DNA from: Candidatus Uhrbacteria bacterium
GTDB taxonomy: Bacteria > Patescibacteriota > Patescibacteriia > UBA9934
Assembly: GCA_963822405.1 (NCBI GenBank)
Contig: CAWGHH010000001.1
Span: 23,296 to 87,295 of the forward strand
Reading direction: 5' to 3'
DNA length: 64,000 nucleotides
Each line of letters begins with the position of its first letter. The first letter of the stretch is position 1. A model generated the notes under the pieces. It worked only from the letters and a program-made list of their open reading frames with translations, made no database searches and was not told the DNA's origin. Shown piece by piece: positions 6,354-19,561 of this stretch. The translations under genes and the position numbers were made by a program.

Positions 6354-7430
6354 CTACTTAGTCAAAATAAAGTCCTGCTTTTCTACCGGAATAACTTGTC
6401 CGTCTAAGGCTTTGCTAGCCAGCCCAGCAAAAATCTGCCTAATGGCCTCTTTTTCATTTTTAAGCTTTGCCGCCCTCTGCTCGTCGGACATCTTGCTCCA
6501 ATCCGCATCGTTATATGTCACCGGATTGTCTAAAGACTTTTTTAAATCCTTAATCACGCTTATTTTATTCTCTTTCAGAGCTCGTAAAATAGTCCTCATC
6601 CAGAGCTCATGGTCTTCCATGCCTCTTATTGAAACCTCTTCACCGGTTGGAGATTCTACTTTTTGGCCGTTACAATTTGGATTAAACCCGCCCAAATCTA
6701 CAACATCCATGAGTTTATAAATGGACAAGGTATTTCTTGATAACGGAACCAGCTCAGTCAAATTCGCAGATTCCGGGTTTCGAATGATCTTTGCTAAGGC
6801 CTCGAACCGATTCGCGGGAATATCGTTTCTAGGTTGGCTCACGTCTGCCTCGTCCTCCCTAACTGTAAAAATATATCGGGCATCTTGATTGATTAGTTCA
6901 CTAATCTGTTCGAGCTCGTTAGGTGTTAGCTCGACATCAAATGACAAATTTAATATTCTCACCCGATCACGATTAATTTTCTTCTGCAGACAAAGCTCAT
7001 TAATAAGCGCCGCTCCGGAATTCAAACCGGCTGTCAGCGAATAATTTTCAATCTGCAAAGGCACGAGGTCGAGCTCGGAAGTATTAGCACTGATTGCCTT
7101 AAGCGATTTTTCGGTCACGCCCGCGTCTTCTTTCTGATTGATACTCATGAGTACGCCTTGCAAGCCAGGAATCTTCTCCTTAAGTACCTTCATTTTTTCA
7201 GCGAACAACTTGATAGCATCCTCATCTTTGTTCCAACATCTAACAATCGCCACAACTATAGCCGAGGCTTCAGATTTCGCCTGTTCGAACTTAGTCTCAA
7301 GAACATTTGTTTGTTTCAAACCTAACTCAGACAAATGAATTCTCGGCCTAATACCACGCTCACCAGATTGCTCGATAGAACTAATCATTTCATCAACACC
7401 ACCCTTTCGCCTGGATTCGAATTCAACCAT
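6354..7430 (-). CDS. Hypothetical protein, last gene of the surface-protein operon
   Basis: 358-aa ORF with no recognisable motifs; same strand and tightly spaced after 7442..9799. Confidence 0.45.
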   Translation of the reverse strand: MVEFESRRKGGVDEMISSIEQSGERGIRPRIHLSELGLKQTNVLETKFEQAKSEASAIVVAIVRCWNKDEDAIKLFAEKMKVLKEKIPGLQGVLMSINQKEDAGVTEKSLKAISANTSELDLVPLQIENYSLTAGLNSGAALINELCLQKKINRDRVRILNLSFDVELTPNELEQISELINQDARYIFTVREDEADVSQPRNDIPANRFEALAKIIRNPESANLTELVPLSRNTLSIYKLMDVVDLGGFNPNCNGQKVESPTGEEVSIRGMEDHELWMRTILRALKENKISVIKDLKKSLDNPVTYNDADWSKMSDEQRAAKLKNEKEAIRQIFAGLASKALDGQVIPVEKQDFILTK

Positions 7431-7441
7431 ATGTACGCGGG

Positions 7442-9799
7442 CTAGGGAGTTATCGATGTTGGAGCCGGTATCGTTGTGTCAGCCGGCGGAACGGTAGGTT
7501 CGATTGGCTCGGGAATTACCGGCTTAACCGTTGTCTCGTTCTTTTGCAGCTTATCAAGCCTTGTCTTTACAGTTTCATTGTCTGGATTAGTTGCGACTAG
7601 TTCTTTTAGCAAGTTAATCGCTTTATCTTTCTTACTCTGTGCTTCGTAAGCCACCGAGAGGTACCACTTCACGTTGTCATTCTTTGGATCAAGCGCCAGA
7701 GCACGTTCAAGCTCAGTTGCCGCCAGGTCATTCTTGCCTTGGCGCAAGTAGAGAAGCGACAGCTGAATGCTGACACCGACATCTTTTGGACTAATAGCGC
7801 GAGTAACTTCCATGCTCTGCACAGCACCAGCGAGATCGCCTTTTCGCTCAGAAACGAATGACGAATAATACCGAGCCGAAGCATAATCACCCTTTAAGGC
7901 AATTGCTTTTGTAAGCGCGTCACCGGCTTTAGTTAGTGCTTCCGCCTGCGCGTCTTTAGCCTTCTTGGCGTCTGCCTCAACCTTTCCGTCAATTAACGGA
8001 TTCAGCAAATCAGAACGGACGATGTACGCTCGAGCTACATCAACTAAATATTTTGGGTTATTTGGCGCGAGTGAAGCAGCCTTTTCTGATGCACCTATAG
8101 CCTTACTATTTGCATCTGCCATCACAGAGGAAAATTCTCTATAAACGGTGGCCAACATTTGCCAGTTAGCAATGCTATTTGGCCCAATATTTACAGCAGC
8201 AATTGCCGAATTAACTGTCGCAGATGAATATCCTTGGAGAGCCGTAGGATCAGCCTTTGGATCAGCTGCCAAGGTGGACGTCTGGATCAACAAGGCGTTT
8301 GATAGGTTTCGATAGTATGAATCGTTGTGGGGGTTGAGCGTAGCAGCACTGTTCAAAAGCTTGATGACATCGGCTGCTGGTGCGCCTTCTTTATCTCGAG
8401 CCACAGCTTTGGCAAACGCCATTTCGGCGCCGTACCGAGTGATCGACAAGAACAGTGAAATCATGACGCCGACTGTCCCGAGCAAAGCAACAAAACTCGA
8501 CAATAAAGCTAGCCGAGGAGAATGTGCATGAGAAACTTCCTTACTTTGCGGTAAAGCAATAGCCGCTATCCAAGCTGTAAACAAGACCAAGATAAATAAT
8601 GTTGTCACAGTAAAGGAGAACATGAAAAAGGCAATAGCAATCGTCACCCAACCAATAACCGGAGGCAAAATTCTATCCCAATCAGGTTTAGTCGAAACAA
8701 CCGCTCGGAAGACGAATAGTATAAGCGCCAACGGAAATAATAGCGCGGCAATAATTCCTAGAATGCCGTAAGTAGCCAGCATAGTGAAGAACTCACTCAT
8801 GGCAGAACTAAAGCGCGTATCCCAGAACAAACTAGAATTCAGTTCCGCAGGCGAATACTGCGTGTAATCTATTCCGAATGTCCCCGGCCCTGAACCAATT
8901 AGTGGGTGTGCGGCCAAGGTTTGAGAAACCACGGTCATTGAAGACTTCAGGTTCAAGCTAACCTCCGGCGGGAATTTTCCATGCAACGGCGAAGGGATAA
9001 ATAGAAAAACAATCGCGAGCGCCAAAAATAGTCCAGGAATTGTTAAGACCGCCGTCTTTTGTAGCAATTCCGGTCGAGCAAACACGAAGGTAAACAGGAA
9101 AAGCGTTGTAGCGATAACCATCACCCACAACAACACTGAATCAAAGGCTATAAGCGCGAGCGCGGCCGTGAAAGCCGTGACTCCAAAGCTGATAGCGGTA
9201 ATTATTTGTTGTCGAGCTGAAGTTCGGCGACCGGTAGTGAGATACGTACTAACTCCGAACATTGTCATAGTCACCAAATAAACGGCAAAAGCAGTAGGCA
9301 CGCCGATAGTATTTTGGAATGGCGGAATAGATAGGCCAAAAAACGTCAAAAAAGACAAAAAGCCGGTTATCGCAGAACCTACCAGTAATGACGTGGTGAT
9401 GTCCCGTTGCAACTTCTCGTCTTCAAAGAAAACCGAGCCTAATAGCATCAAGAAGTACAACAGAACTCCCAAAAGTAAACTCGAGTGCTCCTGTCCACCC
9501 TCGCCCATGAAGCTAGTGGAAGGAGCCAGCGAGAAAGCACTAGATAGTGCCGCAATAGCTAAGAATACAATAGGTAAAAGCAAAACCGGATGTGTTTTTA
9601 CGTGGAGCGACTTGGTCAATGCCATGCCCAAAAATGATGTAGCCGCAATTCCCGTCCCCAAAATCACCAGAATGAACGATTTATTAAAGTCGAACACGTC
9701 CGTAGTCCACGGGAACATGACAAGCGGTACTAAAATTGCCGCTAGGCACCAAAGCACCCGAGAAATCTTCAGTAACATGAGGCCAATTTTGTGGGACAT
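7442..9799 (-). CDS. Polytopic membrane protein of the O-antigen ligase/polymerase type fused to C-terminal TPR repeats
   Basis: The N-terminal roughly 440 aa contain at least 10 predicted TM helices. The C-terminal roughly 300 aa are TPR-like (for example LSLLYLRQGKNDLAATELERALALDPKNDNVKWYLSVAYEA). The protein ends with a Pro/Thr-rich tail ...TTIPAPTSITP. Its start overlaps the stop of the upstream gene. Confidence 0.55.
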   Translation of the reverse strand: MSHKIGLMLLKISRVLWCLAAILVPLVMFPWTTDVFDFNKSFILVILGTGIAATSFLGMALTKSLHVKTHPVLLLPIVFLAIAALSSAFSLAPSTSFMGEGGQEHSSLLLGVLLYFLMLLGSVFFEDEKLQRDITTSLLVGSAITGFLSFLTFFGLSIPPFQNTIGVPTAFAVYLVTMTMFGVSTYLTTGRRTSARQQIITAISFGVTAFTAALALIAFDSVLLWVMVIATTLFLFTFVFARPELLQKTAVLTIPGLFLALAIVFLFIPSPLHGKFPPEVSLNLKSSMTVVSQTLAAHPLIGSGPGTFGIDYTQYSPAELNSSLFWDTRFSSAMSEFFTMLATYGILGIIAALLFPLALILFVFRAVVSTKPDWDRILPPVIGWVTIAIAFFMFSFTVTTLFILVLFTAWIAAIALPQSKEVSHAHSPRLALLSSFVALLGTVGVMISLFLSITRYGAEMAFAKAVARDKEGAPAADVIKLLNSAATLNPHNDSYYRNLSNALLIQTSTLAADPKADPTALQGYSSATVNSAIAAVNIGPNSIANWQMLATVYREFSSVMADANSKAIGASEKAASLAPNNPKYLVDVARAYIVRSDLLNPLIDGKVEADAKKAKDAQAEALTKAGDALTKAIALKGDYASARYYSSFVSERKGDLAGAVQSMEVTRAISPKDVGVSIQLSLLYLRQGKNDLAATELERALALDPKNDNVKWYLSVAYEAQSKKDKAINLLKELVATNPDNETVKTRLDKLQKNETTVKPVIPEPIEPTVPPADTTIPAPTSITP

Positions 9800-9802
9800 A
9801 TT

Positions 9803-12800
9803 TTATGGAGTGATTGTCGGATCAATAGGAGTCGGATCCACAGGGGAATCGACCGGCGCAACGGGGTCAGCTGGTACAGGATCGATCGTCGCGGGGTCAA
9901 CCGGGGCATCAATCGGTACCGTCAGATCAACTATTGGCGGATCAACGGGCATCGGGTCAACCGGAGCGGGGTCAACTACGCCAGCAACTACTGGTTCTGG
10001 TACAGGAACCGGAGTTGGTTCAGGTGCCGGTGTCACAAGTTGCGGCTCGTGGTCTTTCTCGTAGGCGATCACAAGCCAGTCGACCAAAATGCCGGTCGAT
10101 GCACCCGTGTCATGGATGATGAATCCCCCATTTGAACGATCGGTCACGTAAATCTGACCAGTTGCCCCAGCCGGCGTGACAAGAACTCTGTAAGAAGCAG
10201 TATTTGAAATGATCTGATTAAAGTGCACGTCTACATCAGAGAAGGTAACGGTAGCGATACCATTTTGCAATGTACTTGTCCCCGAGAGCTCAACCGTTCG
10301 CTCGGTGGTCGCTGCTGGATACGTGCTTACCAAGTCACCAGCAAATGATTTAACTTGCTTGATCACTGCGCCCTGTGTTGTGAAGTCACCGTTCTCGGCA
10401 ATTTTCCAGGCTCCACCAATCCCTTCCATCGAACCAACTGACAAAATGTTTCCACCATTCATGTTAAGCGCGCCAGAAAGGTCCAGTCCGTTCGACGAAG
10501 TAATTCCGGATACAGTGTTGCTAACATCCGGCGCCGCGTTCGTTCCACTGCCCGAATAATATGATGCACGAATGAATGCGACAACCTGACCAGCTCCGCT
10601 CGACCATGGCTCCATTGCGTAACCAAGAATCGGCCCAGCCTTAGTCGCTTTCATCGCCACACCCGGAGTCGACGAGGTGGTCAACGGATCGCCAATCGCG
10701 ACTGCGCCATTTTCGTCAGAAACATTCGTTGGCACTCGACCAGACAACGCGATTGGATAGCTTCCCGCCTTGTACTCACCGGCAAGGAAACCTGGACGCG
10801 TCGAAACGACACCAACGAGCTTCTCGTCGTACTTAGTTGTCCCCGACTTCTTTACACCTTGTGCGTGATCTGCAAATACAACTACTTCACCAGCCGCAAG
10901 AGTTTCATCCGATGGGAACATTTCAGCAAAATCATATGAACCAACATTCCAACCAGCGGCGTTTGTTTTCATGTAACCACCACCAACTGACGAATCGTAG
11001 AAAATGTATGCGTTTGTTTGGGTAAGTCCGCGATCTGATGGATACAAATTACCAGACACTAGAATATCACCGCTGTTTGTAATAGAAGCTATTTCGCCAC
11101 CAAGGTTATTCTCAAAGGCTAAACGATATTTGCTAAGCGAGTTGACCTTGGTTCGCAATCCCATGTTTACGTCGATCGAGGTTGCACCATCCCAACCGCT
11201 ACCAGCCAGCAATAAGGCGTGCGAACTCTGAGTCTGAGTCGATGCAGTGGCTCGGGCAAGAGAAGACAATTGAAGATCGCCACTGATTGCCAATGCCGAT
11301 CCGTCTGCAGCTAACATGTTTCCGCCGTACCAAGTGTTGTCGATAAATACCGTAATCGTTGTCATGCCAACGCCATTAAAGCTCGTTAGCGCGCGACCAA
11401 CTACGCGACCAGGAGCCGTTGCCTTCATGGCGTAACCGGGAGTTGAGGAAGCCGTTAGATAGTCGCCCGCAATAATAGGACCGTTCTCACTTGTCACATG
11501 AAGTGGAACTCGACCATCAAGTGCAATAGGCAAAGGGTGCGCGCCCTGGTCTCGAACATTCGTACCAATTGTTTCGTTAGGCGAGGTAGAAACAATGCCG
11601 AAAAGTAAATCAGCGGAAGTGGCACGTGTTAATACTGGCAGTGATTTTGTCACGGTTCCAGACAATATCTCACCGGTAAAAGCGTCACTCTCCTGCGCTT
11701 GATACGTAAACATTGATGACGTGAGCGCAACGATGTCTCCGTTCGTCGGAGTTCCGTCTGTCTCATACCATTCGGCGTAGTCAGCCGGTGCGCCAGAACA
11801 AACAACAAGTGCTCGGAACACCGCGGTAGTATCCGAGTTTGCACCAGAGTGACAGACACCGTTAGTGGTGGCCGTGCCGCCAAAGTTCATTGTAAAATCA
11901 CCAGCAGTTGTCACCTGCCAAGCGGTTCCGCCGATGATTGAGGCAGTTGTACCGGCCGTACTGTTTCCGATAGTAATGACGTCGGTAGTTGAAGCGTTCG
12001 TTGCGATGTTGATCGTGTCGCCACCATTGGATACAACTCCTCCAATATTTGTCGTCTTAGCACCACCACCATCGTTTAATCCTAGAACTGCCGTACCGGT
12101 AAGATCCGTGTTTGCGCCCCTAATCCATGCCGAACTTGATGCATGAAAACTACCAATAGTAATCGAGTCTGCGCTAGTCGCGTCCGTAGCAATCTGTATA
12201 GAATTCGCTCGATCTACATCTACCCCACCTATTTTAATGGTCGAGGAATCAGCCGCGGCATTCAAGAAATTAAAAGTAGCGGAGGTTGACGTAAAGTCTC
12301 CTCCATTCATGGCGATATCACCGGCGTTAGTGATTGACCAGTCATTACCACCAGTCAGAGTAAGGAGTGTAGATGCGTGTGAATTTCCGATAGCAATAGT
12401 GTCCGCAGTTGTGCCTTCTGTTGCTAAGTTTATTGTAGTTGCGGAGTCGGCAATAGAACCAACGGTAATAGTAGAGGAAGAAGTAGTCTCACCCATATAT
12501 ACTGTTCCTCCCTGTATACGAACGTTGTTGCCTCCGTAAAGATCCAGCGTAGATGAGGCATGCATGCTTCCGATGGTAACGTTGTCTGCCGAAGTAGCAT
12601 CTGTCGCTATTCGAACTTGGTTTGCACGATCGCTATCCACACCACCAATATCAATATTAGACGAGTTAGTCGCCAAATCAAGGAAATTAAAGGTGGCGGA
12701 TGTTGAAGTAATGTCTCCGCCGTTTAGCGCCAAATCATCAGCCGATGTAATTAATCCGGCACCGGAAACGCTCCAAGCAGTTCCGCCGGTCAGTGAAAGC

Positions 12801-14827
12801 GTCGTTGCAGCATTCGTATTCCCTACGCTTATGGTGTCCTGAAAAGCGGCTCCGGTGCCAATATTGATCGACGTCGCTATCCCCAAACCATCATTAATGC
12901 TTATCAACCCCGATTTTAAATTCATCACAGATGATGCATGCGCGCTGCCAATAGAAACCGTGTCCGCAGAGGTGGCATCAGTAGCGATGCTGATCGTGTT
13001 AGCTAAATCCGTTCCCACACCACCGATATCGATCGTTGGTGTATCACCGGTATTATCCAAAAAATTGAATCCGACTGTTGCAGAGGAAGTAATTGCTGAG
13101 AAAAATGGAGAGTTCAAGGCCAGACCGTTTGCCAACGTCAACAGACCGCTTGCGTCTAGCGACCAACTAGGTCCACCGATCAGTGCTAAAGTTGTAGCAA
13201 CGTTCGAGTTTCCAATGCTAATCGTATCTCCAGCCGTCGCATCTAGACCGATGTTGATCGTATCTGCATCTGAATAATTGGCAATGTCGATCGTGTCACA
13301 AGCAGCCGAGTTACAAAGAGACATGCTAGTCGCATTAGTATTTCCGATGGCGAGCACCCCAGCCGAAGCTTTGTCTAAGCTTGCAGACGTAAGATTCAAA
13401 AATGTACCCAAGCCGTTATTCGCTATGCTCCAATTAGCACTAGTCAAATCAATAGAGTCAGAAGCCTCACCGATAGAAATAGTGTTAGCATTAAAACTCG
13501 TTCCGATGCTTAGCGAAGCACAGGCAGGTGAGTTACAAAGCGTTAGAGAAGTAGCATTTACGCCACCGATTGTTAATGCTCCAGCGGCATTTGTATCCAG
13601 CCCTTGGTTAACCGCGATATTAATCGTTCCGGCAGATGAAACATCGAAATTTGTAAAATCAATGGCGCCAGTAGTTCCAATAATATTATTATCGCCGACC
13701 GATAAAGCGTTCGTGTAGTCAGTGTCAGTCGCAACTATAGCGGTCGTCGATGCGGCAGATGCGGAAAGGGTTAGCACGCCAGTCGATGAGATATTCCAAT
13801 CATCACCACCGGTGAGCGAAACGGTAGTTCCAGCATTTCCATTTCCCATGATAATCGTGTCCGCGCTGGTTCCGTTCGTGGCGATGTTGAGGTTATTCGC
13901 AATATCAACAATCGGACCAGATCCGCCAATGTTGATCGTGGCCGAATCTCCAGTGGCGTTCAATAGATTGAATGTCCCAGCCGTAGAAGTAAAATCTCCT
14001 CCGTTTAACGCAAGGTCGGCACTGCTAGTAATGTTGCTTGCGGTAGAAATAACATTCACTGAAGTTAAGATCAGGTCGCCCGATGTGTTGGTTGATAATG
14101 TTGCGCCAGGAATAGCGGCACCGGAATTATAAATACGGATAAGACCGTTAAGTGTACTGTCGGTTCCAAGGTTTAGCTCAGCAAGAGACTCATCAAAGAA
14201 AAACTTACCAGCGGCTGGCGTCACTCCACCAATAACAAAATCATCAGTCGCCGAAGTCAAATACGTATATGTACCACCGTCAGTAAACAACGAAGTAAAG
14301 GCGCTCGAGTCTAAACCGTCGAGGGTGTCAGCGTTTAAAGCGTAAGGCGCAGCGACAATCTGTTTTCGAGGTGAAAGTATTTCACCATTAACGGTAACTT
14401 CGAGATAGACGCCAGCATTGTTGCCAAAAACTGTATCAGCGATGGCGGCATAAGGAACGCCGGCGGCGGTATCACCAAGATTTTCTGAAAAAAGGCCATC
14501 AGTTAGCGTGACTGTTCGAGCCGCTGGGGCCACACAAGTAGCAGAAGCGTTTGACCACAAACATGTACCACCGGAAAGCGCATCATAAAACTCGAACTTC
14601 ATGCTCGCTGTTGTCGCCGCCACCGGCACGCCGTTAGTATTAAGAATTCTGCCTTGATAACTTGTAATGTTTGGGGCGCTTGCGGCATGCGTAGAAACGC
14701 CGAAAAACGCGGAGAGGGCCGCGAAGCCGATCAAAACGGGCACGAGGAGAAGCCTCGCAATTACTTGCGGGAATCCGTGGTGTGCACGTTGATTCATGTA
14801 GTTACTAAACTGTGTCGAGCGCCACAT
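9803..14827 (-). CDS. Giant secreted cell-surface protein (1674 aa) with tandem Thr/Ser/Ala/Gly/Asn-rich repeats
   Basis: Signal peptide/TM LLLVPVLIGFAALSAFFGVSTHAASA. At least 5 tandem roughly 100-aa repeats (LTGG..WS..G.L......ALNGGDITSTSATFNFLD.....S.I.IGGV..DRAN...IATDATSAD..TIGS.HASS). Two C-terminal roughly 60-aa repeats (GRVP..V.ENG....GD.LT.SSTPG.AMKAT). Pro/Asp/Val-rich C-terminal tail ending ...DPTPIDPTITP. No internal stops over 5 kb. Confidence 0.7.
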   Translation of the reverse strand: MWRSTQFSNYMNQRAHHGFPQVIARLLLVPVLIGFAALSAFFGVSTHAASAPNITSYQGRILNTNGVPVAATTASMKFEFYDALSGGTCLWSNASATCVAPAARTVTLTDGLFSENLGDTAAGVPYAAIADTVFGNNAGVYLEVTVNGEILSPRKQIVAAPYALNADTLDGLDSSAFTSLFTDGGTYTYLTSATDDFVIGGVTPAAGKFFFDESLAELNLGTDSTLNGLIRIYNSGAAIPGATLSTNTSGDLILTSVNVISTASNITSSADLALNGGDFTSTAGTFNLLNATGDSATINIGGSGPIVDIANNLNIATNGTSADTIIMGNGNAGTTVSLTGGDDWNISSTGVLTLSASAASTTAIVATDTDYTNALSVGDNNIIGTTGAIDFTNFDVSSAGTINIAVNQGLDTNAAGALTIGGVNATSLTLCNSPACASLSIGTSFNANTISIGEASDSIDLTSANWSIANNGLGTFLNLTSASLDKASAGVLAIGNTNATSMSLCNSAACDTIDIANYSDADTINIGLDATAGDTISIGNSNVATTLALIGGPSWSLDASGLLTLANGLALNSPFFSAITSSATVGFNFLDNTGDTPTIDIGGVGTDLANTISIATDATSADTVSIGSAHASSVMNLKSGLISINDGLGIATSINIGTGAAFQDTISVGNTNAATTLSLTGGTAWSVSGAGLITSADDLALNGGDITSTSATFNFLDLATNSSNIDIGGVDSDRANQVRIATDATSADNVTIGSMHASSTLDLYGGNNVRIQGGTVYMGETTSSSTITVGSIADSATTINLATEGTTADTIAIGNSHASTLLTLTGGNDWSITNAGDIAMNGGDFTSTSATFNFLNAAADSSTIKIGGVDVDRANSIQIATDATSADSITIGSFHASSSAWIRGANTDLTGTAVLGLNDGGGAKTTNIGGVVSNGGDTINIATNASTTDVITIGNSTAGTTASIIGGTAWQVTTAGDFTMNFGGTATTNGVCHSGANSDTTAVFRALVVCSGAPADYAEWYETDGTPTNGDIVALTSSMFTYQAQESDAFTGEILSGTVTKSLPVLTRATSADLLFGIVSTSPNETIGTNVRDQGAHPLPIALDGRVPLHVTSENGPIIAGDYLTASSTPGYAMKATAPGRVVGRALTSFNGVGMTTITVFIDNTWYGGNMLAADGSALAISGDLQLSSLARATASTQTQSSHALLLAGSGWDGATSIDVNMGLRTKVNSLSKYRLAFENNLGGEIASITNSGDILVSGNLYPSDRGLTQTNAYIFYDSSVGGGYMKTNAAGWNVGSYDFAEMFPSDETLAAGEVVVFADHAQGVKKSGTTKYDEKLVGVVSTRPGFLAGEYKAGSYPIALSGRVPTNVSDENGAVAIGDPLTTSSTPGVAMKATKAGPILGYAMEPWSSGAGQVVAFIRASYYSGSGTNAAPDVSNTVSGITSSNGLDLSGALNMNGGNILSVGSMEGIGGAWKIAENGDFTTQGAVIKQVKSFAGDLVSTYPAATTERTVELSGTSTLQNGIATVTFSDVDVHFNQIISNTASYRVLVTPAGATGQIYVTDRSNGGFIIHDTGASTGILVDWLVIAYEKDHEPQLVTPAPEPTPVPVPEPVVAGVVDPAPVDPMPVDPPIVDLTVPIDAPVDPATIDPVPADPVAPVDSPVDPTPIDPTITP

Positions 14828-17255
14828 TCACCGTTAATGGTGCGGGCTCTTTCTTATCCCGGTAATCAATAGGGCGAACAATTTTTTCCGCAAACCCCGT
14901 TTTAGAGAAGCTTACGTAATACTCGTTCGGACCTAAAAGGAAAGAATAACGGCCACGGTTATCCGTGAGCGTAGACTCGACAAGTTTATTATACCGCGGT
15001 TCGAAGAGCCGCACGACAACATTCCCCAGGGGAGCTTTTCCAACAGTCGCATCAACGATTCCCCAGCCCTTCGGCTTCTTCGGAGTGGCCAATCGAATAG
15101 AAATTAACAAGGTAACAATTTGCACACCAAGACCGATTCCAGAAAACACCCCCGGCAATGTAACGAACACGAAAAATGAGAGCAAAACACCAGTTGGCGC
15201 AGCAACCTTTTGAAGAGTGCGCAAAAATCGTTTCATTTTTAGTCTGTGTTCACCTTGATGCGCCGGCGCTTCAGACGGATCCATTGGAATATTCGCCGCA
15301 ATAGTCGCGTCTTTTTCGCTGACGGTTATGAGCTGCGAAGTATAAACATCAAGAAATACTCCGTCATCCTTAATGCCGGCCGAATAAACACTTGGAAAAA
15401 TGAATCCCCCTTTAGCGACCTTAAGTTTGTAGACGCCCGGCTCTGGCACGAATAGAAAATACTTTCCTTCAGCATTAGAAACCGCTGACTTAATCAGTCG
15501 GTTATCCGAGACTCGATATAGCCTAACTACCGCGAGCTCAACAGGGATCTTCGTCACTGCGTTATACACTACACCGTAAGCCTTTCGTTTTCGACGATTA
15601 AAAAGCAATAATGGCGAGGTGATTAGGTATTGGAGATACGCGCCAAGGTTAAAACTCGAGGCCAAGACTATAGTTGAGGAAGCCGCTACCGCAGCCGTTA
15701 CTGGCGCCGCCACAGTAGCCGTTGCCTGTGCTTCTGGCGACGAAAGAACCTCATTAATTGCGGCCACCGCCTGAGTAGCAGCCACACTTACCGCAGTCAC
15801 CGTCTTCGCAACTTGTGGGGGCAAGACAGCAAGAATAGGCGAAGGTTCAGGAGTCACAATCGGGACAACAACTTCGGCAGTTCGTCGAAGCTCGATCGAT
15901 CCTGACAAGACATGGTCCCGTGATGCAGTAGAAATTGTAGCGGTTTCATATCCATCACGTTCCGCGACTAACGTATAGCTTCCATCCGGTACATACCAAC
16001 CAAAAGTTCCATTAATCGTTGTGCGCTGTGGATTAGATTCGCCAAAAGAAGACGCATTCCATAACGTTTGTGCGCCGGAATATACAGTGACTATTACATT
16101 TTCTACTGGTCGTCGCACGCCATTTACTATTTCATAAACTAAACCGTAAGAACTTGGTTGTACCGCGACTGGAACAACTTTAGTCCCCCCACTTTTTCGA
16201 GTCACAACTACATTGAGCACGTCGCTTCCAGTCGGAGCCTGAATTAACCCCTGGTAAGTATCCGGGGATATTTGCGACAAAATATAATTGGCGTCGCCAA
16301 TCACTACCATCACCGCACTAACATCCGTCGGGTTCGTCACAGACACGCGCACAACCGGCGTAGTTCCGGGCAACACACTAATCTGACCACCGACGAGCGA
16401 TAGTGGGATACCTCCAGCTGTTACCGTAACTGAAACATCAATATCGGTTGGAAGTGCACTTCCACCAGATGGCGGAGTTGATGGCGTCGGTGCAGGCGAA
16501 GGACTCGGTGGAGTCGGGGTTGGAGTAGGTTCCGGTGTGGGGGTTGGGGTTGGCTCAGGAGTTGGCGTTGGTGGAGGTTCTGGAGGAACAACCGGAGGTT
16601 CAGGTGGCGGTTCTGGCGGTGGTGCCGGTGGCGGCCCAGAAGGTGGAGGCACTGGGATAACTTCCGTGATCACGGATCCCGACACCCCAGACGTCGAGGC
16701 ACTAATAATCGGTAAAGGAATCGAGCCCCTATTCAATGATGTCCCGGCTAAATCAATATAATACGTACCTGCAGTAGATGGATTAGTAATCTTATTCGCC
16801 CCCGTTCCAGATGATGACGCGTTTGTTCCGATCTCAATTCCCACCACATGACCGGCAATGATCGAGCCTCCATCACCAGCACAAACAGTGATCGTGAACA
16901 CGTTCACCACTCGATCCACAGACATCTGTTCGACTCCCGTACAATCAGCCGCCGTGGTTCGGTCAACGCCATTGTCAGTCACGTCAACATCATCTTCAAT
17001 AATAGAGGAAGCCGTGAATCCGCTTGGGAACGTTAATATAACCGTCTCTCCTTCATCCCATGCATCAGGACTAGCTAACGTGAATAAAAACGAGTGATTC
17101 GACGGCTGACTAATGACTATCGTACTTGGCTGATCGGAAAGATTTGTGACCACGTCAGTGACCGCCTGTACGTTCGAAATAGGAAAAACACCCATCAAAA
17201 AAAGGGTGATAATACAAAACATCGCGGCACGCTGCAAAAAAAATCTCACAGGCAA
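14805..17255 (-). CDS. Surface protein with a Pro/Thr-rich linker and carboxypeptidase-regulatory-like (CarboxypepD_reg/Cna-B-like) beta-sandwich domains
   Basis: Signal peptide; a roughly 70-aa PT/PE linker (PPPEPPPEPPVVPPEPPPTPTPEPTPTPTPEPTPTPTPPSPSP); three segments with CarboxypepD_reg-type motifs (YSGAQ...DGSYTLVAERDGYETA; AEGKYFLFVPEPGVYKLKVAKGGF; NRGRYSFLLGPNEYYVSFSKTGF); interspersed hydrophobic helices. It overlaps the start of the 1674-aa gene by 23 nt. Confidence 0.6.
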   Translation of the reverse strand: MPVRFFLQRAAMFCIITLFLMGVFPISNVQAVTDVVTNLSDQPSTIVISQPSNHSFLFTLASPDAWDEGETVILTFPSGFTASSIIEDDVDVTDNGVDRTTAADCTGVEQMSVDRVVNVFTITVCAGDGGSIIAGHVVGIEIGTNASSSGTGANKITNPSTAGTYYIDLAGTSLNRGSIPLPIISASTSGVSGSVITEVIPVPPPSGPPPAPPPEPPPEPPVVPPEPPPTPTPEPTPTPTPEPTPTPTPPSPSPAPTPSTPPSGGSALPTDIDVSVTVTAGGIPLSLVGGQISVLPGTTPVVRVSVTNPTDVSAVMVVIGDANYILSQISPDTYQGLIQAPTGSDVLNVVVTRKSGGTKVVPVAVQPSSYGLVYEIVNGVRRPVENVIVTVYSGAQTLWNASSFGESNPQRTTINGTFGWYVPDGSYTLVAERDGYETATISTASRDHVLSGSIELRRTAEVVVPIVTPEPSPILAVLPPQVAKTVTAVSVAATQAVAAINEVLSSPEAQATATVAAPVTAAVAASSTIVLASSFNLGAYLQYLITSPLLLFNRRKRKAYGVVYNAVTKIPVELAVVRLYRVSDNRLIKSAVSNAEGKYFLFVPEPGVYKLKVAKGGFIFPSVYSAGIKDDGVFLDVYTSQLITVSEKDATIAANIPMDPSEAPAHQGEHRLKMKRFLRTLQKVAAPTGVLLSFFVFVTLPGVFSGIGLGVQIVTLLISIRLATPKKPKGWGIVDATVGKAPLGNVVVRLFEPRYNKLVESTLTDNRGRYSFLLGPNEYYVSFSKTGFAEKIVRPIDYRDKKEPAPLTVNVALDTV
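16470..16670. repeat. Low-complexity GGT/GGA/GGC microsatellite-like tract encoding the PT/PE linker
   Basis: ggttggggttgg / ggtggcggttctggcggtggtgccggtggcgg reiterations, which are potential slipped-strand indel sites. Confidence 0.4.
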
Positions 17256-17258
17256 TCA

Positions 17259-18119
17259 TTAAGTGCGACGCCGCACTAAACTGATTATACCAAGAAGGAC
17301 GAGTGCCAATGCTAACACCGCACCGAAAATAACAATCGGCGGAATAAACGTAACAAATGTCTGGGCGAGTTTTGCATCACCGTCCCAGAGTTCAAACCTA
17401 TACGACCCAAGTAAAAACTTTGAAAATCCAGTTTTTGCCGGCCAATTTAGCGAAACCCCACGAATGGTTCCTGGTGGTAAATGTTTTGGCTCATTAGAAA
17501 GCTGACCCCGGCCAACTTCACGACCAAATGGCCCGATTATTCGGACTTCATTCGGTAAAATTATCGTCTCTTCGCCATCATTTTGAAATACTGCTGATAT
17601 CATCGTGCTTTTTCCAAAGGTAACTGCTGGAGTGGCGGCGAATGAGTCAATAATCATTGACCGCGTCATCCGACCAGGAACATGAATAAACAACATCGAA
17701 GCCACAGAGGCTTGAACATTACCAACAGACGTCGAGTTCCCCTTCTCAGTGACAAGAATTACCACTGTCGGAGATTGTGCATCGACCCCTGTCGGCAAGC
17801 TCACCGATATATCGATCGTCCGCGAAGAGTGCGGTTCGAGTATGAACGTGCTGGGCAATGCAGAAATTGCCGTTTTCAAGTCTCCAGCTAACGCAGTAAA
17901 GGAGATTTCTTCGGCCTGTTTTCCAAAAACTGCTTCAACAAAAGAAATATCGTAATTCCTCAGTAAATCAGTATCGTTTTTTACTAAAATCGTTGCTGTC
18001 GCCTTTTCGCCGGGCATCACCGTTAGATCTGAAGCACTGGGTTCAATAGTCGCCCCAAACGCAAACAGTGGCGTCGCAAAAGATGTGATCAAGGTCAACA
18101 AGACTGCAAATCGACGCAT
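17259..18119 (-). CDS. Small surface protein with an N-terminal signal peptide and a C-terminal TM anchor followed by basic residues (CscA/DUF916-DUF3324-like architecture)
   Basis: N-terminal signal peptide MRRFAVLLTLITSFATPLFAFGA; C-terminus IVIFGAVLALALVLLGIISLVRRRT. Confidence 0.5.
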   Translation of the reverse strand: MRRFAVLLTLITSFATPLFAFGATIEPSASDLTVMPGEKATATILVKNDTDLLRNYDISFVEAVFGKQAEEISFTALAGDLKTAISALPSTFILEPHSSRTIDISVSLPTGVDAQSPTVVILVTEKGNSTSVGNVQASVASMLFIHVPGRMTRSMIIDSFAATPAVTFGKSTMISAVFQNDGEETIILPNEVRIIGPFGREVGRGQLSNEPKHLPPGTIRGVSLNWPAKTGFSKFLLGSYRFELWDGDAKLAQTFVTFIPPIVIFGAVLALALVLLGIISLVRRRT

Positions 18120-18120
18120 A

Positions 18121-19041
18121 TTAATAGTTCCCTACGAACACGAAAGTTAGCGTTTGCGAATATGAACCATTCGGCTGAGTATCGTTAACCCCAACCTTCA
18201 GTGTCAAAAAATCTCGCGCCTTTAGCGAATTATCAGTTCTACTCGCCACCTCCTGAAGTACGCCCGTGATCGGCGCATCCTGAGTATCGAATGTCGAACC
18301 AGCCAACGAAACATCGGACGATCGGGCTCCATATTCGTTAGCGTTGGCCGTAACTGTTCCATCGGATACATCCGGGATCGTTCCCGCGCTGCCAGATAAA
18401 TCCTGATTTTCAAACATATACACGCTATAGCCGCTCGAAACGTCAGCCGCAGCGTCCCAACCCACAATTCCCGTATTCACAACGGATGTCGAAAATGCCC
18501 CAAAAGGCAAAGAGGTGCCACTTAGTTTGTAAACAAAGTCATTTGAACCGTCGATCACCGGCGCCACGCCTCCGTCTTTCAGCTCGTCAACGGTCAATGT
18601 CGAGCCTCCAACTACGGTTATTCGGCCAATTCCAGAAACCTGCAAGGCGCCCAGGTCCTGAATCACCGCAATATAGTCCCCAACTGAATACCCGGCGACG
18701 GAAGTGACGGTTACAACATTGCTGACCAAGAAGGTGGCGGCAACCTGACTAGATGAATCCTGGGAAAAAACTGAAAAAGAAACCGTTGGATCGTAAATTC
18801 CCGCTCTAAAACCCGCATCTTCCCGGTAAGTTGCCGACGAACTTATCCCCAACGTCGTGCCAAAGTTATCCCGAACCTTGTATGAAGCCGAATTACTCGT
18901 ATCCCCTCCTCCGGGTCCAATTGAGTCCCACTGAATTTGGTAATTGCCTGAGGACATATTTGACTCAGCATGAAAAGTGGCTGAGGTTAGCCAAATAGCT
19001 ATCAGGCCAAAACACAAATTTAAAAATTTAAGGGTCTTCAT
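18121..19041 (-). CDS. Secreted Ser/Thr/Gly-rich protein, first gene of the surface operon
   Basis: Signal peptide MKTLKFLNLCFGLIAIWLTSATFHA; predicted beta-rich; ends LTFVFVGNY. Confidence 0.5.
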   Translation of the reverse strand: MKTLKFLNLCFGLIAIWLTSATFHAESNMSSGNYQIQWDSIGPGGGDTSNSASYKVRDNFGTTLGISSSATYREDAGFRAGIYDPTVSFSVFSQDSSSQVAATFLVSNVVTVTSVAGYSVGDYIAVIQDLGALQVSGIGRITVVGGSTLTVDELKDGGVAPVIDGSNDFVYKLSGTSLPFGAFSTSVVNTGIVGWDAAADVSSGYSVYMFENQDLSGSAGTIPDVSDGTVTANANEYGARSSDVSLAGSTFDTQDAPITGVLQEVASRTDNSLKARDFLTLKVGVNDTQPNGSYSQTLTFVFVGNY

Positions 19042-19093
19042 ACCTCCTTATGAACACTATAAGTACTCAGGAACTTTTCCACAAGCAAAAAGC

Positions 19094-19303
19094 TGTGGAT
19101 AACCCTTCTTTTTTTGTCTACACTAGCGTAGCCAAACCTATTAACTCTCTATCCACAGCTTATCCCCAACCATGTGTAATGATTTACAGATAATGATTTC
19201 ATTACAGAGCAACTAGCCTCCATTGGTTAATATGCAGCTTTGTTTTTGCCCTCCGAATCATCACACATGCAACTTATACACACGAGTACACAGTTTATCC
19301 CCA
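19094..19303. promoter_or_regulatory. Cluster of four DnaA-box-like 9-mers plus an inverted/direct repeat operator-like element, upstream of the surface operon
   Basis: TGTGGATAA at 19094-19102 is a perfect reverse complement of TTATCCACA. cTATCCACA at 19149-19157, TTATCCcCA at 19160-19168 and TTATCCcCA at 19295-19303 are 1-mismatch boxes. An inverted repeat TGTAATGA-N16-TCATTACA at 19173-19204 contains a direct repeat TAATGATTT x2. Confidence 0.35.
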
Positions 19304-19561
19304 GACCTCGTTTCATATGTTTCGTACATTTACCGAACGATAGATCAATATTACAAAAAACACCCCGTTAGAGGCGTCTCACTCGAATGCAGTTGATTAT
19401 AGATCGAAAAACACCGAAATTACACGAAACAATAAAACCCTCTAAAATGCGTCCTGGCTAGGAGCAGGCGCGGCGCAGGACGAGACGTACTTAATGGTAC
19501 GTAGAGTCCGAGCCCAGTGCCAGCGACAACGCCAGGGCGAATTTTAGTGGGTTTTATATAC

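What the first reader, a model, noticed from the sequence alone, without database searches (positions are those of the whole stretch)
6354..19041. Thirteen-kb co-directional operon of secreted and surface proteins ending in an O-antigen-ligase-like/TPR membrane protein
- **Operon layout.** Six minus-strand genes have overlapping or closely spaced stops and starts: 18121..19041, 17259..18119, 14805..17255, 9803..14827, 7442..9799 and 6354..7430.
- **Encoded proteins.** Two small signal-peptide proteins, one with a C-terminal TM anchor plus RRRT. An 816-aa protein with a PT linker and CarboxypepD_reg-like domains. A 1674-aa beta-repeat giant. A polytopic membrane protein with TPR repeats. An unknown 358-aa protein.
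- **What is absent.** No sortase, LPXTG motif, pilin or type IV pilus ATPase is visible, so this is not a canonical pilus or sortase locus.
- **Interpretation.** The architecture (chaperone-like small proteins, an adhesin-like giant and a Wzy/O-antigen-ligase-like enzyme) suggests a dedicated surface-appendage or S-layer-like assembly and glycosylation module. For an episymbiotic or small-genome bacterium it would be a candidate host-attachment apparatus.
Basis: partly seen in the sequence, partly recalled or inferred. Interest (0 to 1): 0.75.

Follow-up and report, generated by a model that had tools for sequence, protein, structure and literature searches.

The report
Divergent Pam-type pilus and fibre operon
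This operon from an Uhrbacteria-type ultrasmall (CPR) bacterium encodes a distant, stripped-down relative of the recently described "Pam" pilus, comprising one pilin and one membrane-anchored chaperone. They sit beside a giant tail-fibre-like adhesin and two membrane proteins, so the operon is probably a host-attachment appendage, and a variant of a known kind.

Summary
**Observation.** Confirmed. Six tightly packed minus-strand ORFs lie at exactly the stated coordinates. Five of them form a block conserved in order across 68 Uhrbacteria/Patescibacteria species. The sixth (358 aa) is found in none of them.

**Identity.**
- **306-aa protein:** a distant homologue of the CPR Pam pilins. 46 of 48 family members hit NCBIfam PamT and 27 of 48 hit Pam_pilin_C, all below the curated cut-offs.
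- **286-aa protein:** folds as a two-domain PapD/WxLIP-type chaperone with a C-terminal TM helix, the hallmark of PamC/PamD.
- **1674-aa giant:** a tail-fibre-like protein. It has a Bdellovibrio MAT-type N-terminal domain, ~140-aa shaft repeats and two Peptidase_G2-like autochaperone modules.
- **816-aa protein:** a multi-pass membrane protein with a conserved N-terminal ectodomain.
- **785-aa protein:** 11 TM segments plus TPR repeats. Its "O-antigen ligase" label found no HMM or profile support.

**Mechanism (inferred).** Sec export, then chaperone-assisted, usher-less donor-strand assembly of a surface filament or adaptor that is linked to a variable adhesive fibre.

**Novelty.** A new variant of a kind described in a 2026 preprint. 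It lies in a lineage outside the two classes where that preprint found Pam pilins most prevalent, and it has a different composition.

**Interest.** Moderate.

The parts
19562..19714 (-). tRNA-Arg(CCT) at 19639-19714 and tRNA-Ala(CGC) at 19562-19637. They mark the conserved upstream boundary of the locus. A promoter-like site lies at 19842-19814.
   Evidence: tRNA-Arg(CCT) lies upstream of the pilin gene, in the same orientation, in 12 of 12 related loci examined; tRNA-Ala(CGC) in 7 of 12.
19042..19561 (-). 520-nt non-coding leader, 57% A+T, ending in the Shine-Dalgarno sequence AAGGAGGT immediately before the pilin ATG.
   Evidence: It is conserved only in the closest relative, L002.
18121..19041 (-). 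Pam-type pilin, PamT-like, 306 aa. Signal peptide: residues 1-28 (18958-19041). Conserved N-terminal segment, candidate donor strands: residues 29-85 (18787-18957). Inserted beta-barrel domain: residues 86-170 (18532-18786). Pilin C-terminal Ig-like domain: residues 171-306 (18124-18531).
17259..18119 (-). Membrane-anchored PapD/WxLIP-like chaperone, PamC/D-like, 286 aa. Signal peptide, two beta-sandwich domains and a C-terminal TM helix at residues 261-285 (17265-17339) ending in RRRT.
   Evidence: AF2 model pLDDT 86.2. Foldseek hits: WxLIP 9i1y/9i25 at E 4e-12; CfaA, CsuC, FimC, DraB, Caf1M and EcpB at 4e-11 to about 5e-8. Pfam WxLIP_PGBD in 6 of 21 family members. A homologous ORF lies directly after the pilin gene in 73 of 74 loci.
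14805..17255 (-). 816-aa multi-pass membrane protein. Signal peptide, conserved N-terminal ectodomain (residues ~35-195), PT-rich linker, Ig-like region, then hydrophobic segments (residues ~513-552 and 689-724) interleaved with CarboxypepD_reg domains. Proposed base or anchor.
   Evidence: Pfam CarboxypepD_reg, 3 stretches, E 3.2e-17. Hydrophobic segments. Homologues in 68 of 74 loci; in 67 of these the N-terminal domain match spans at least 130 residues, with ~41-68% identity in the aligned set. No detectable similarity to the pilin: hhalign probability 13%.
9803..14827 (-). 1674-aa tail-fibre-like giant. Signal/anchor at residues 26-44. MAT-type N-terminal domain at residues ~45-175 (14303-14695). 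~140-aa shaft repeats at residues 271-975 (11903-14017). Two Peptidase_G2-like autochaperone modules with D[YF]AE motifs at residues 1016 and 1299 (11279-11782 and 10448-10960). Pro-rich C-terminal tail.
   Evidence: Bdello_MAT_N E 2.7e-6, hit by 25 of 25 homologues, best 4.3e-11. Repeats and duplicated module. Motifs. Pfam Peptidase_G2 in 11 of 22 homologous C-terminal regions (best 6.4e-11) and Phage_cement_2 in 5. Weak PDB profile hits to phi29 gp12 and a tailspike chaperone domain. Homologues in 59 loci, ranging from 1353 aa to more than 4559 aa.
7442..9799 (-). 785-aa polytopic membrane protein, ~11 TM segments, with a conserved GSGPGT[FY] loop and a C-terminal TPR domain. Last conserved gene of the unit; function unresolved.
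   Evidence: TPR families. TM segments. Present after the giant in 22 loci, which by my reading of the table are all the loci that extend beyond the giant. No Wzy_C or O-antigen-ligase support.
6354..7430 (-). 358-aa cytoplasmic-type protein of unknown function. Probably co-transcribed (11-bp gap) but not part of the conserved system. A terminator-like hairpin follows at 6347-6333.
   Evidence: No Pfam or NCBIfam hit and only a weak PHROG hit. No signal peptide or TM segment. No homologue in any of the 73 other loci. Hairpin.

Best explanation
The locus is a divergent, minimal version of the Pam pilus system of CPR bacteria, which is a chaperone-assisted, usher-less, donor-strand-exchange surface filament. 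Here it is fused operonically to a MAT/tail-fibre-like adhesin.

**Proposed mechanism.**
1. The first four products are exported by Sec. (The signal peptides are read from the sequence; export itself is inferred.)
2. The 286-aa protein stays tethered in the cytoplasmic membrane by its C-terminal helix. It acts as a PapD/PamC-D/WxLIP-type chaperone, holding the incomplete Ig-like C-terminal domain of the 306-aa pilin by strand complementation. (The fold is shown; the function is inferred.)
3. The pilin's conserved N-terminal segment (residues 29-85) is disordered in the monomer model and contains three S-x-x-Y-x-[IV]-x-D-type strand motifs. It supplies the donor strand or strands to the next subunit or to a partner protein, so a filament grows without an usher because there is no outer membrane. 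(Inferred by analogy with Pam, chaperone-usher and TLP-1 fibrils.)
4. The 816-aa multi-pass protein provides the membrane base or anchor, a role analogous to PamR. (Inferred.)
5. The 1674-aa protein folds as a trimeric fibre, helped by its two Peptidase_G2-like intramolecular chaperone modules, which may then be cleaved off at the D[YF]AE sites. It docks through its conserved MAT-type N-terminal domain to a conserved element of the apparatus and presents a variable shaft and tip to the host cell. (Inferred.)
6. The TPR membrane protein is a conserved assembly or modification factor of unknown chemistry.
For: **Pilin homology.**
- NCBIfam PamT and Pam_pilin_C hit the window protein.
- 46 of 48 family members hit PamT and 27 of 48 hit Pam_pilin_C.
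- All 10 distant relatives tested hit one or both models. One 240-aa protein aligns over the whole PamT model at 1.1e-17.

**Pilin fold.**
- Residues 29-85 are as conserved as the folded domains yet disordered in the monomer model. This matches the donor strand of the TLP-1 fibril (PMC11494351).

**Chaperone.**
- Two beta-sandwich domains plus a C-terminal TM helix.
- Best structural matches are WxLIP and chaperone-usher chaperones, E 4e-12 to 1e-8.
- This architecture is what Troman et al. describe for PamC and PamD.

**Fibre.**
- MAT N-terminal domain in 25 of 25 homologues. Peptidase_G2 in 11 of 22.
- The Pam preprint reports a tail-fibre-like protein consistently co-localised with pam operons.

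**Conservation.**
- Pilin in 74 of 74 loci, chaperone-like ORF beside it in 73 of 74, 816-aa homologue in 68, giant in 59.
- TPR protein in 22 loci, which by my reading of the table are all the loci that extend beyond the giant.
- These counts cover 68 species.
- The block always sits at the same chromosomal site, next to RmuC and tRNA-Arg(CCT).

**Gene packing.** Tight junctions, with a strong Shine-Dalgarno sequence only on the pilin gene.
Against: - All Pam and MAT HMM scores are far below the curated cut-offs: 37.8 versus 240 bits for PamT, 14 versus 55 for Pam_pilin_C, and 27-35 versus 60 for MAT_N.
- The closest Pam model is PamT, which the preprint interprets as a non-polymerising tip subunit lacking a donor strand. 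With only one pilin in the window, polymerisation is not demonstrated.
- The PamA/B architecture (nine-strand N-terminal sandwich, linker strand, C-terminal domain) is not reproduced. Here a beta-barrel is inserted instead.
- No PamR, second chaperone or ATP synthase neighbour is present.
- The solved Pam structures (PDB 25PZ, 25QA) did not appear among the matches, so no direct structural comparison was made.
- No multimer prediction could be run.
- The roles of the 816-aa and 785-aa proteins rest only on conservation and topology.
Confidence: 0.62

Rival explanations
1. A static surface complex of the WxL/WxLIP (Csc) type rather than a polymerised pilus. The membrane-anchored WxLIP-like protein permanently holds the 306-aa protein by strand insertion. 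That pair serves as a cell-surface docking platform for the giant fibre and the 816-aa protein, and no filament is formed.
For: - The best structural matches of the 286-aa model are E. faecium WxLIP, free and bound to its WxL partner (9i1y and 9i25, E 4e-12), marginally ahead of the chaperone-usher chaperones.
- Pfam WxLIP_PGBD is hit by 6 of 21 family members.
- WxLIP is proposed to bind its partner by inserting a beta-hairpin (PMC10599100).
- The only pilin-like gene is most similar to PamT, described as a non-polymerising tip subunit.
- There is a single pilin gene in the window.
Against: - The 306-aa protein has no WxL domain hit.
- No WxL chain appears among its listed structural matches.
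- It is homologous to the C-terminal domain shared by Pam pilins that do polymerise.
- Its 57-residue N-terminal segment is conserved but disordered in the monomer model, as expected of a donor strand.
- It is the first gene and the only one with a strong Shine-Dalgarno sequence, as expected of a major structural subunit.
Confidence: 0.22
2. One reading: an S-layer-like or surface-fibre assembly and glycosylation module, in which the TPR membrane protein is a Wzy/O-antigen-ligase-type enzyme that glycosylates or ligates the secreted proteins.
For: - The 785-aa protein is polytopic, with a conserved extracytoplasmic GSGPGT[FY] loop. From memory, this resembles the GxGxG loop of Wzy_C proteins (sequence).
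- PamA carries a modification on Ser356, so a pilin-modifying enzyme would be plausible.
- The gene is conserved at the end of the operon.
Against: - No Wzy_C hit at E <= 0.05 in 14 family members or at E <= 0.1 in the window protein.
- No NCBIfam ligase hit.
- A profile of the membrane domain finds no solved ligase or polymerase.
- hhalign against E. coli WaaL gives probability 0.2%.
- No glycosyltransferase, sugar-nucleotide or S-layer domain is found in the operon.
Confidence: 0.08
3. A domesticated or decaying prophage tail-fibre cassette. The giant, with its autochaperone modules and tailspike-like barrel domains, would be phage-derived and the neighbouring genes unrelated.
For: - Peptidase_G2 and Phage_cement_2 hits in the giant's relatives.
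- Weak PDB profile hits to phi29 gp12 and a tailspike chaperone domain.
Against: - No PHROG hit for the pilin, chaperone, 816-aa protein or giant.
- No capsid, portal or terminase gene nearby; the neighbours are housekeeping genes.
- The block sits at the same chromosomal site, beside RmuC and tRNA-Arg, in 60 or more species with vertical-looking divergence.
- All products carry bacterial signal peptides or TM anchors.
Confidence: 0.03

Closest known systems
Pam pilus system of Candidatus Mycosynbacter amalyticus (Saccharimonadia); Troman et al. 2026, bioRxiv 10.64898/2026.03.03.709456; NCBIfam NF058579 (PamT) and NF058581 (Pam_pilin_C)
   Same: - Restricted to CPR bacteria.
- Sec-exported pilin with a homologous Ig-like C-terminal domain and N-terminal region.
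- PapD-like chaperone carrying a C-terminal TM helix.
- No usher and no ATPase.
- A tail-fibre-like gene adjacent.
- Operon organisation.
   Different: - One pilin here, against PamA, PamB, PamE and PamT there.
- One chaperone instead of two.
- No RbmA-like PamR. Instead there is an 816-aa multi-pass CarboxypepD_reg protein.
- The pilin has the PamT-like layout plus an inserted ~85-residue beta-barrel, not the nine-strand N-terminal sandwich with a linker strand.
- A conserved TPR membrane protein is added.
- No ATP synthase, CorB or MFS neighbours in the window.
- Lineage is Uhrbacteria (Parcubacteria group), whereas the preprint found Pam pilins most prevalent in Saccharimonadia and Microgenomatia.
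- All HMM scores are far below the curated cut-offs.
Classical and archaic chaperone-usher pili of Gram-negative bacteria (Pap, Fim, Csu, CFA/I)
   Same: - Two-domain chaperone fold.
- Pilin Ig-like fold (CsuA/B, PapA, FimG, CfaB).
- Conserved C-terminal aromatic residue in the pilin (...VGNY).
- Presumed donor-strand complementation and exchange.
   Different: - No usher and no outer membrane.
- The chaperone is membrane-anchored rather than soluble in the periplasm.
- No detectable sequence similarity; the resemblance is in fold only.
WxL/WxLIP (DUF916-DUF3324) cell-surface clusters of Lactobacillales and Bacillales (PMC10599100; PDB 9i1y, 9i25)
   Same: - The 286-aa protein shares the layout of signal peptide, two Ig-like domains and a C-terminal TM helix, and WxLIP is its top structural match.
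- Some family members hit Pfam WxLIP_PGBD.
- Both sit in operons with small and large secreted partners.
   Different: - No WxL domain in any partner protein.
- The partner here is Pam-pilin-like.
- No LPXTG protein.
Bdellovibrio MAT (mosaic adhesive trimer) fibres (Caulton et al. 2024, PMC10769870; NCBIfam NF053851) and phage tailspikes with intramolecular chaperones (phi29 gp12, Peptidase_G2)
   Same: - Signal peptide followed by a conserved beta-rich N-terminal domain of about 130 aa.
- Long variable repetitive shaft.
- C-terminal autochaperone-type module.
- Predicted role in recognising another cell.
   Different: - The autochaperone is of the Peptidase_G2 type and duplicated, not S74.
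- The host is a CPR bacterium with no outer membrane.
- The gene is embedded in a pilin-chaperone operon.
- The N-domain score is below the curated cut-off.
- Trimerisation is untested.
TLP-1a/b pond fibrils (CryoSeek, PMC11494351; PDB 9ikj, 9ikk) and TasA fibres
   Same: - An N-terminal strand that AF2 predicts as disordered but which is the donor strand in the fibril.
   Different: - No sequence similarity.
- The best sequence relatives of TLP-1 are from Flavobacteriales.
- Different helical packing, with the n+4 subunit as donor.

Membership tests
Pam pilus system (CPR) | The pilin is homologous to the Pam pilin models (PamT, Pam_pilin_C). | tested here: met
   Window protein: PamT 1.3e-9, Pam_pilin_C 0.037. 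Of 48 family members, 46 hit PamT and 27 hit Pam_pilin_C, best 7.4e-16 and 1.3e-8. All 10 distant relatives tested hit one or both, up to 1.1e-17 over the full PamT model.
Pam pilus system (CPR) | The score reaches the NCBIfam curated cut-off (equivalog or domain level). | tested here: not met
   37.8 bits against 240 for PamT, and 14.1 against 55 for Pam_pilin_C. None of the 10 relatives tested reaches a cut-off.
Pam pilus system (CPR) | PapD-like chaperone carrying a C-terminal transmembrane helix (PamC/PamD). | tested here: met
   AF2 model with two beta-sandwich domains and a helix at residues 261-285. Foldseek hits to chaperone-usher chaperones and WxLIP at 4e-12 to 1e-8. Sequence comparison with PamC/D themselves was not possible.
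Pam pilus system (CPR) | Pilin architecture of PamA/B: nine-strand N-terminal sandwich, linker donor strand and truncated Ig-like C-terminal domain. | tested here: not met
   The model shows a disordered conserved N-terminal segment, an ~85-residue barrel resembling tailspike N-terminal domains, and a C-terminal domain. Shorter relatives lack the barrel. This is the PamT-like layout.
Pam pilus system (CPR) | Multi-pilin operon with PamA/B/E, PamT, two chaperones and the PamR anchor. | tested here: not met
   Profile searches of every ORF in the window find one pilin and one chaperone only. The RbmA-like fold ranks only 22nd for the 286-aa model.
Pam pilus system (CPR) | Filament assembled by donor-strand exchange. 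| not testable with these tools
   Needs multimer prediction or cryo-EM. The only support is indirect: a conserved N-terminal segment that is disordered in the monomer model.
Pam pilus system (CPR) | Conserved neighbourhood: tail-fibre-like protein and ATP synthase. | tested here: inconclusive
   A tail-fibre-like giant is present in the operon. No ATP synthase was found among the large ORFs of the window that were scanned.
Chaperone-usher pili | Outer-membrane usher. | tested here: not met
   No usher domain in any of the six proteins. From general knowledge, Patescibacteria lack an outer membrane.
WxL/WxLIP surface cluster | A partner protein with a WxL domain. | tested here: not met
   No Pfam WxL hit in any of the six proteins. 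No WxL chain among the listed structural matches of the pilin model.
WxL/WxLIP surface cluster | DUF916-DUF3324 protein with a C-terminal TM helix. | tested here: inconclusive
   WxLIP is the top structural match, and WxLIP_PGBD is hit by 6 of 21 family members (best 3.1e-7). The window protein itself scores only 0.052, below the cut-off.
MAT fibre superfamily (Bdellovibrio) | Conserved beta-rich domain of about 130 aa directly after the signal peptide. | tested here: met
   Bdello_MAT_N is hit by 25 of 25 homologues, best 4.3e-11. The window protein scores 1.5e-8 over residues 42-125. All are below the 60-bit cut-off.
MAT fibre superfamily (Bdellovibrio) | Trimeric beta-helical fibre, with an S74 autochaperone in one subfamily. 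| tested here: inconclusive
   No S74 hit. Peptidase_G2-type modules are found instead. Trimerisation could not be tested.
O-antigen ligase / Wzy_C | Wzy_C domain in the polytopic membrane protein. | tested here: not met
   No hit in 14 family members or in the window protein. No solved ligase is hit by the profile. hhalign against WaaL gives probability 0.2%.
Sortase-dependent pili | Sortase gene and LPXTG sorting signals. | tested here: not met
   No LPXTG motif in any of the proteins checked. No sortase domain among the Pfam hits.
Type IV pili | Prepilin-type pilin, PilB/PilT ATPase and PilC platform. | tested here: not met
   None among the Pfam or NCBIfam hits of the operon proteins or of the other large ORFs scanned.

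The most novel reading that the evidence does not exclude
The operon encodes a composite 'pilus plus fibre' host-capture organelle that has not been described. A PamT-like subunit, handled by a single membrane-tethered chaperone, would act as the adaptor or stalk. The conserved MAT-type N-terminal domain of a hypervariable trimeric giant fibre, and/or the N-terminal domain of the 816-aa anchor, would be plugged into it by strand complementation.

This would identify the long-sought docking partner of MAT-type N-terminal domains, left open for Bdellovibrio in PMC10769870. It would also show that donor-strand machinery can mount phage-like fibres on a cell without an outer membrane.
Probability: 0.2. 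Interest if true: 0.8.

Novelty: new variant of a known kind. Interest (0 to 1): 0.58.

Why it matters
How ultrasmall CPR/Patescibacteria cells find and hold their hosts is largely unknown. The Pam pilus was described only in 2026, from a single cultivated Saccharimonadia species.

- **Wider distribution.** A recognisably related but much simpler pilin-chaperone pair is a fixed, vertically inherited feature of Uhrbacteria, with 68 species found in one scan. The profile search found about 1,400 cluster representatives in the wider superfamily. Pipelines that rely on the curated cut-offs would miss all of these.
- **A defined core.** The locus shows a conserved five-gene unit: pilin, chaperone, multi-pass anchor, MAT-like giant fibre and TPR membrane protein.
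- **A link between two systems.** It ties donor-strand pili to Bdellovibrio-type adhesive fibres in one operon.
- **Testable hypotheses.** It suggests what MAT N-terminal domains bind, and which parts face the host (the variable shaft) and which face the cell (the conserved N-terminal modules).

Tried and rejected
- **Direct PDB sequence searches** with the pilin, chaperone and giant: nothing meaningful. With the pilin profile: only a weak tail-tube hit.
- **PHROGs** on five operon proteins: no support for a phage origin.
- **O-antigen ligase idea.** Four checks gave no support:
  - Pfam on the window protein and on 14 homologues.
  - PDB profile searches with the whole protein and with the membrane domain alone.
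  - NCBIfam.
  - hhalign against E. coli WaaL.
- **Is the N-terminal domain of the 816-aa protein pilin-like?** hhalign against the pilin profile gives probability 13% and there is no PDB hit. Rejected.
- **A second pilin or chaperone elsewhere in the window:** none.
- **A conserved regulatory RNA in the 520-nt leader:** no Rfam hit apart from the tRNAs, and conservation only in the nearest relative.
- **blastp self-comparison of the giant** returned nothing usable. It was replaced by phmmer with one repeat unit.
- **The solved Pam structures (25PZ, 25QA)** did not appear among the matches, so no direct structural comparison was made.

Full report
**1. The observation**

The spacers between them are 1, 3, -23, 3 and 11 bp. 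Only the first gene is preceded by a strong Shine-Dalgarno sequence, AAGGAGGT. The others look translationally coupled. Public gene calls use slightly later starts for genes 3 and 4 (805 and 1664 aa), which removes the 23-bp overlap.

- The first four products have signal-peptide-like N-termini (read).
- The 286-aa protein has a C-terminal TM helix ending in RRRT.
- The 816-aa protein has a PT-rich linker and three CarboxypepD_reg stretches.
- The giant is repetitive.
- The 785-aa protein has about 11 hydrophobic segments and C-terminal TPR repeats.
- No LPXTG motif occurs.

**2. Context**

The window is chromosomal DNA of a Patescibacteria bacterium.

*Neighbours.* The nearby genes are housekeeping genes:
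- YchF-like GTPase, RmuC, a helicase and the DNA polymerase III delta subunit.
- PolA, PNPase, trigger factor, DnaA and PBP1.

*Upstream.* Two co-oriented tRNA genes, Arg-CCT and Ala-CGC, lie upstream of the operon, followed by a 520-nt leader.

*Relatives.* Close relatives of the first two proteins come from 'Patescibacteria group' and 'Candidatus Uhrbacteria' assemblies. One scan of GTDB species representatives with a peptide pattern from the first protein returned 68 loci. Most of them carry those names. The many 'uncultured Gammaproteobacteria' titles on these Patescibacteria-like contigs look like mislabels. The NCBI lineage is Patescibacteria group; Parcubacteria group; Candidatus Uhriibacteriota.

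**3. Conservation of the gene block**

I searched 74 fetched loci by tblastn and by profile.

| Component | Loci with a homologue |
|---|---|
| 306-aa pilin | 74 of 74 |
| Homologue of the 286-aa protein directly after it | 73 of 74 (the exception is a contig that ends 151 bp after the pilin gene) |
| 816-aa protein | 68 |
| Giant | 59 |
| 785-aa TPR protein | 22, by my reading of the table every locus that extends beyond the giant |
| 358-aa protein | 0 |
| RmuC upstream | 63 |

tRNA-Arg(CCT) lies upstream in 12 of 12 loci checked.

The unit is therefore five genes, vertically inherited at a fixed site. The 358-aa gene is a lineage-specific addition with no signal peptide and no family hit.

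Rates of change differ informatively.
- The pilin is about 37-79% identical across the loci.
- The N-terminal domain of the 816-aa protein is about 41-68% identical.
- The N-terminal domain of the giant is about 47-80% identical.
- The chaperone falls to 21-25% identity in the more distant loci.
- The middle parts of the 816-aa protein and of the giant are variable in both length and content. Giants range from 1353 aa to more than 4559 aa.

**4. The 306-aa protein is a Pam-type pilin**

*Sequence evidence.*
- Pfam finds nothing.
- NCBIfam gives PamT ('CPR-type pilus protein') at 1.3e-9 over residues 11-125. It gives Pam_pilin_C at 0.037 over residues 175-306.
- At family level this is robust. 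Of 48 members, 46 hit PamT (best 7.4e-16) and 27 hit Pam_pilin_C (best 1.3e-8).
- An exhaustive profile search of 1.84 billion cluster representatives found 1404 relatives at E <= 1e-3.
- Many of those relatives are 215-240 aa long and match only residues ~8-90 and ~171-306.
- The window protein is therefore a PamT-sized core with an ~85-residue insertion.
- All ten of these distant relatives that I tested hit PamT and/or Pam_pilin_C. One aligns over the whole PamT model at 1.1e-17.
- Every score is far below the curated cut-offs.

*What the Pam models represent.* They derive from Troman et al. 2026 (bioRxiv 10.64898/2026.03.03.709456).
- The authors solved the PamA and PamB filaments of Ca. 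Mycosynbacter amalyticus by cryo-EM.
- They showed donor-strand-mediated assembly.
- They described an operon with PapD-like chaperones that carry a C-terminal TM helix, a tip subunit PamT, an anchor PamR and a co-localised tail-fibre-like protein.

*Structure.*
- The AF2 model has pLDDT 79.7. It shows a signal helix, a disordered stretch at residues 24-82 and a beta-rich body at residues 87-306.
- Foldseek hits chaperone-usher pilins (PapA, CsuA/B, FimG, CfaB) with probability 0.94-1.0 and TM about 0.5 on the target.

*The N-terminal segment.* Residues 29-85 are disordered in the model yet as conserved as the folded domains: mean top-residue frequency 0.66, against 0.61 and 0.64. The segment contains three strand-like motifs with alternating hydrophobic residues. 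In TLP-1, an N-terminal stretch that AF2 also predicts as disordered is the donor strand in the fibril (PMC11494351). TLP-1 is only an analogue, because there is no sequence similarity.

*Start codon.* Met29 is invariant, and some annotations start the protein there at 278 aa. The Shine-Dalgarno sequence supports Met1, which keeps the signal peptide.

**5. The 286-aa protein is a membrane-tethered chaperone**

- The AF2 model (pLDDT 86.2) shows two beta-sandwich domains followed by a helix at residues 261-285.
- Foldseek hits E. faecium WxLIP, alone and bound to its WxL partner (9i1y, 9i25, 4e-12).
- Just behind come the pilus chaperones CfaA, CsuC, FimC, DraB, Caf1M, EcpB, SafB and CupB2, at 4e-11 to about 7e-8.
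- RbmA, the PamR-like fold, ranks only 22nd.
- Six of 21 family members hit Pfam WxLIP_PGBD.

This is the architecture reported for PamC and PamD, and for WxLIP in Firmicutes. The window contains only one pilin and one chaperone.

**6. The giant is a tail-fibre/MAT-like protein**

- Residues 42-125 hit NCBIfam Bdello_MAT_N. All 25 aligned homologues do so, best 4.3e-11 and below the cut-off.
- In Bdellovibrio, MAT fibres carry a conserved ~130-aa N-terminal domain after the signal peptide. It is thought to bind an unidentified surface element, and the tips are variable (PMC10769870).
- Residues 271-975 consist of units of about 140 aa.
- The conserved C-terminal 650 residues contain a duplicated module: residues 1073-1183 against 1290-1460, iE 2e-19. 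D[YF]AE motifs sit at residues 1016 and 1299.
- Eleven of 22 homologous C-terminal regions hit Pfam Peptidase_G2, the intramolecular-chaperone autocleavage domain of phi29 gp12 (best 6.4e-11). Five hit Phage_cement_2.
- PDB profile hits to gp12 and to a tailspike chaperone domain are weak.

**7. The two membrane proteins**

*816-aa protein.* It combines a conserved N-terminal ectodomain, a variable Ig/FnIII-type middle, and TM segments interleaved with CarboxypepD_reg domains. Its N-terminal domain is not detectably pilin-like. I suggest it is the base or anchor, but this is inference only.

Only TPR repeats are recognised. Its function stays open.

**8. Mechanism and rivals**

*Most likely (about 0.6).* A minimal Pam-type system: Sec export, chaperone capture, then usher-less donor-strand assembly. 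It would be anchored by the 816-aa protein and functionally coupled to the MAT-like fibre, whose variable shaft and tip face the host.
- Shown: the homologies, the folds, the operon and its conservation.
- Inferred: polymerisation, who donates strands to whom, anchoring, fibre docking and autocleavage.

*Main rival (about 0.2).* A non-polymerising WxLIP-type surface complex. It is favoured by the PamT-like (tip-type) affinity of the only pilin.

*Minor rivals.* The glycosylation/S-layer reading and the prophage-remnant reading are poorly supported.

**9. Comparison and novelty**

The system works like Pam and chaperone-usher pili and is homologous to Pam components. It fails several membership features:
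- It does not reach the curated cut-offs.
- It lacks the PamA/B pilin architecture.
- It lacks the multi-pilin, PamR and two-chaperone composition.
- It lacks the ATP synthase neighbourhood.

It also adds three conserved genes. It occurs in Uhrbacteria, whereas the preprint found Pam pilins most prevalent in Saccharimonadia and Microgenomatia and searched only for PamA and PamB homologues. A search of the held literature found nothing on an Uhrbacteria pilus.

I therefore rate it a new variant of a known kind, of moderate interest. The main value is the conserved operonic coupling of a donor-strand pilin-chaperone pair with a MAT-type fibre.

Noticed in passing
window 21493-23658 (-), tandem repeat at 21826-22425: A helicase-like ORF of 721 aa carries a 186-bp tandem repeat (3.2 copies, 84% matches). 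In the protein this appears as five repeats of a module of about 60 aa (…YETIEEAKAAVQLLN…GWI[DN]WYDFLGQTRP…) appended to the C-terminus of the helicase core.
   Followed up: no
window 18955-18957 (Met29 of the pilin); P0001, P0008: Met29 is invariant in all 48 aligned pilins. Several public annotations start the protein there at 278 aa, which removes the signal peptide. The strong Shine-Dalgarno sequence lies before Met1, not Met29. The mature N-terminus probably begins close to this Met.
   Followed up: partly
window 19432-19557 (-); L002 8330-8454 and 8568 onward: An imperfect palindrome of about 125 nt follows tRNA-Ala directly. A related element occurs after each of the two tRNAs in the closest relative. 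It may be a terminator or processing element, or a small repeat family.
   Followed up: partly
window 6354-7430 (-): The 358-aa ORF has no signal peptide, no TM segment and no family hit. It is absent from all related loci. In the close relative L002 a different gene on the opposite strand occupies this position. G+C is slightly lower here (0.46). It looks like a lineage-specific insertion at the end of the operon.
   Followed up: partly
loci L008, L012, L015, L018, L021, L023-L025, L028 and others: Many GTDB species-representative records that carry this Patescibacteria-type locus are titled 'uncultured Gammaproteobacteria bacterium', and one is titled 'Methylococcaceae bacterium'. These are probably placeholder or mis-binned labels rather than true gammaproteobacterial occurrences.
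   Followed up: no
window 54072-55475 (+) and the GC-skew minimum near 54-58 kb: dnaA lies about 35 kb from the operon. Cumulative GC skew turns from falling to rising around 54-58 kb, which suggests the replication origin lies inside the window.
   Followed up: no
window 14805-17255 (-), residues ~553-724: The basic stretches after the TM segments of the 816-aa protein (NRRKRK, PKKPKGW) would, by the positive-inside rule, place two CarboxypepD_reg domains in the cytoplasm. That is unusual for this normally extracytoplasmic domain. The topology is unresolved.
   Followed up: no
one search hit list (for example P0215, P0226, P0227, P0284): The pilin superfamily is large, with 1404 cluster representatives. 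It includes short 215-240-aa forms without the inserted barrel and long forms up to 715 aa that share only the N-terminal segment. This suggests the conserved N-terminal segment is a portable module.
   Followed up: partly
window 37212-38141 (-): A tyrosine recombinase (Phage_integrase family, XerC/D-like). tRNA-Arg(TCT) and tRNA-His lie 5-6 kb away at 31513-31587 and 32363-32437. The same genes recur near the locus in relatives (L006, L010, L065, L068).
   Followed up: no
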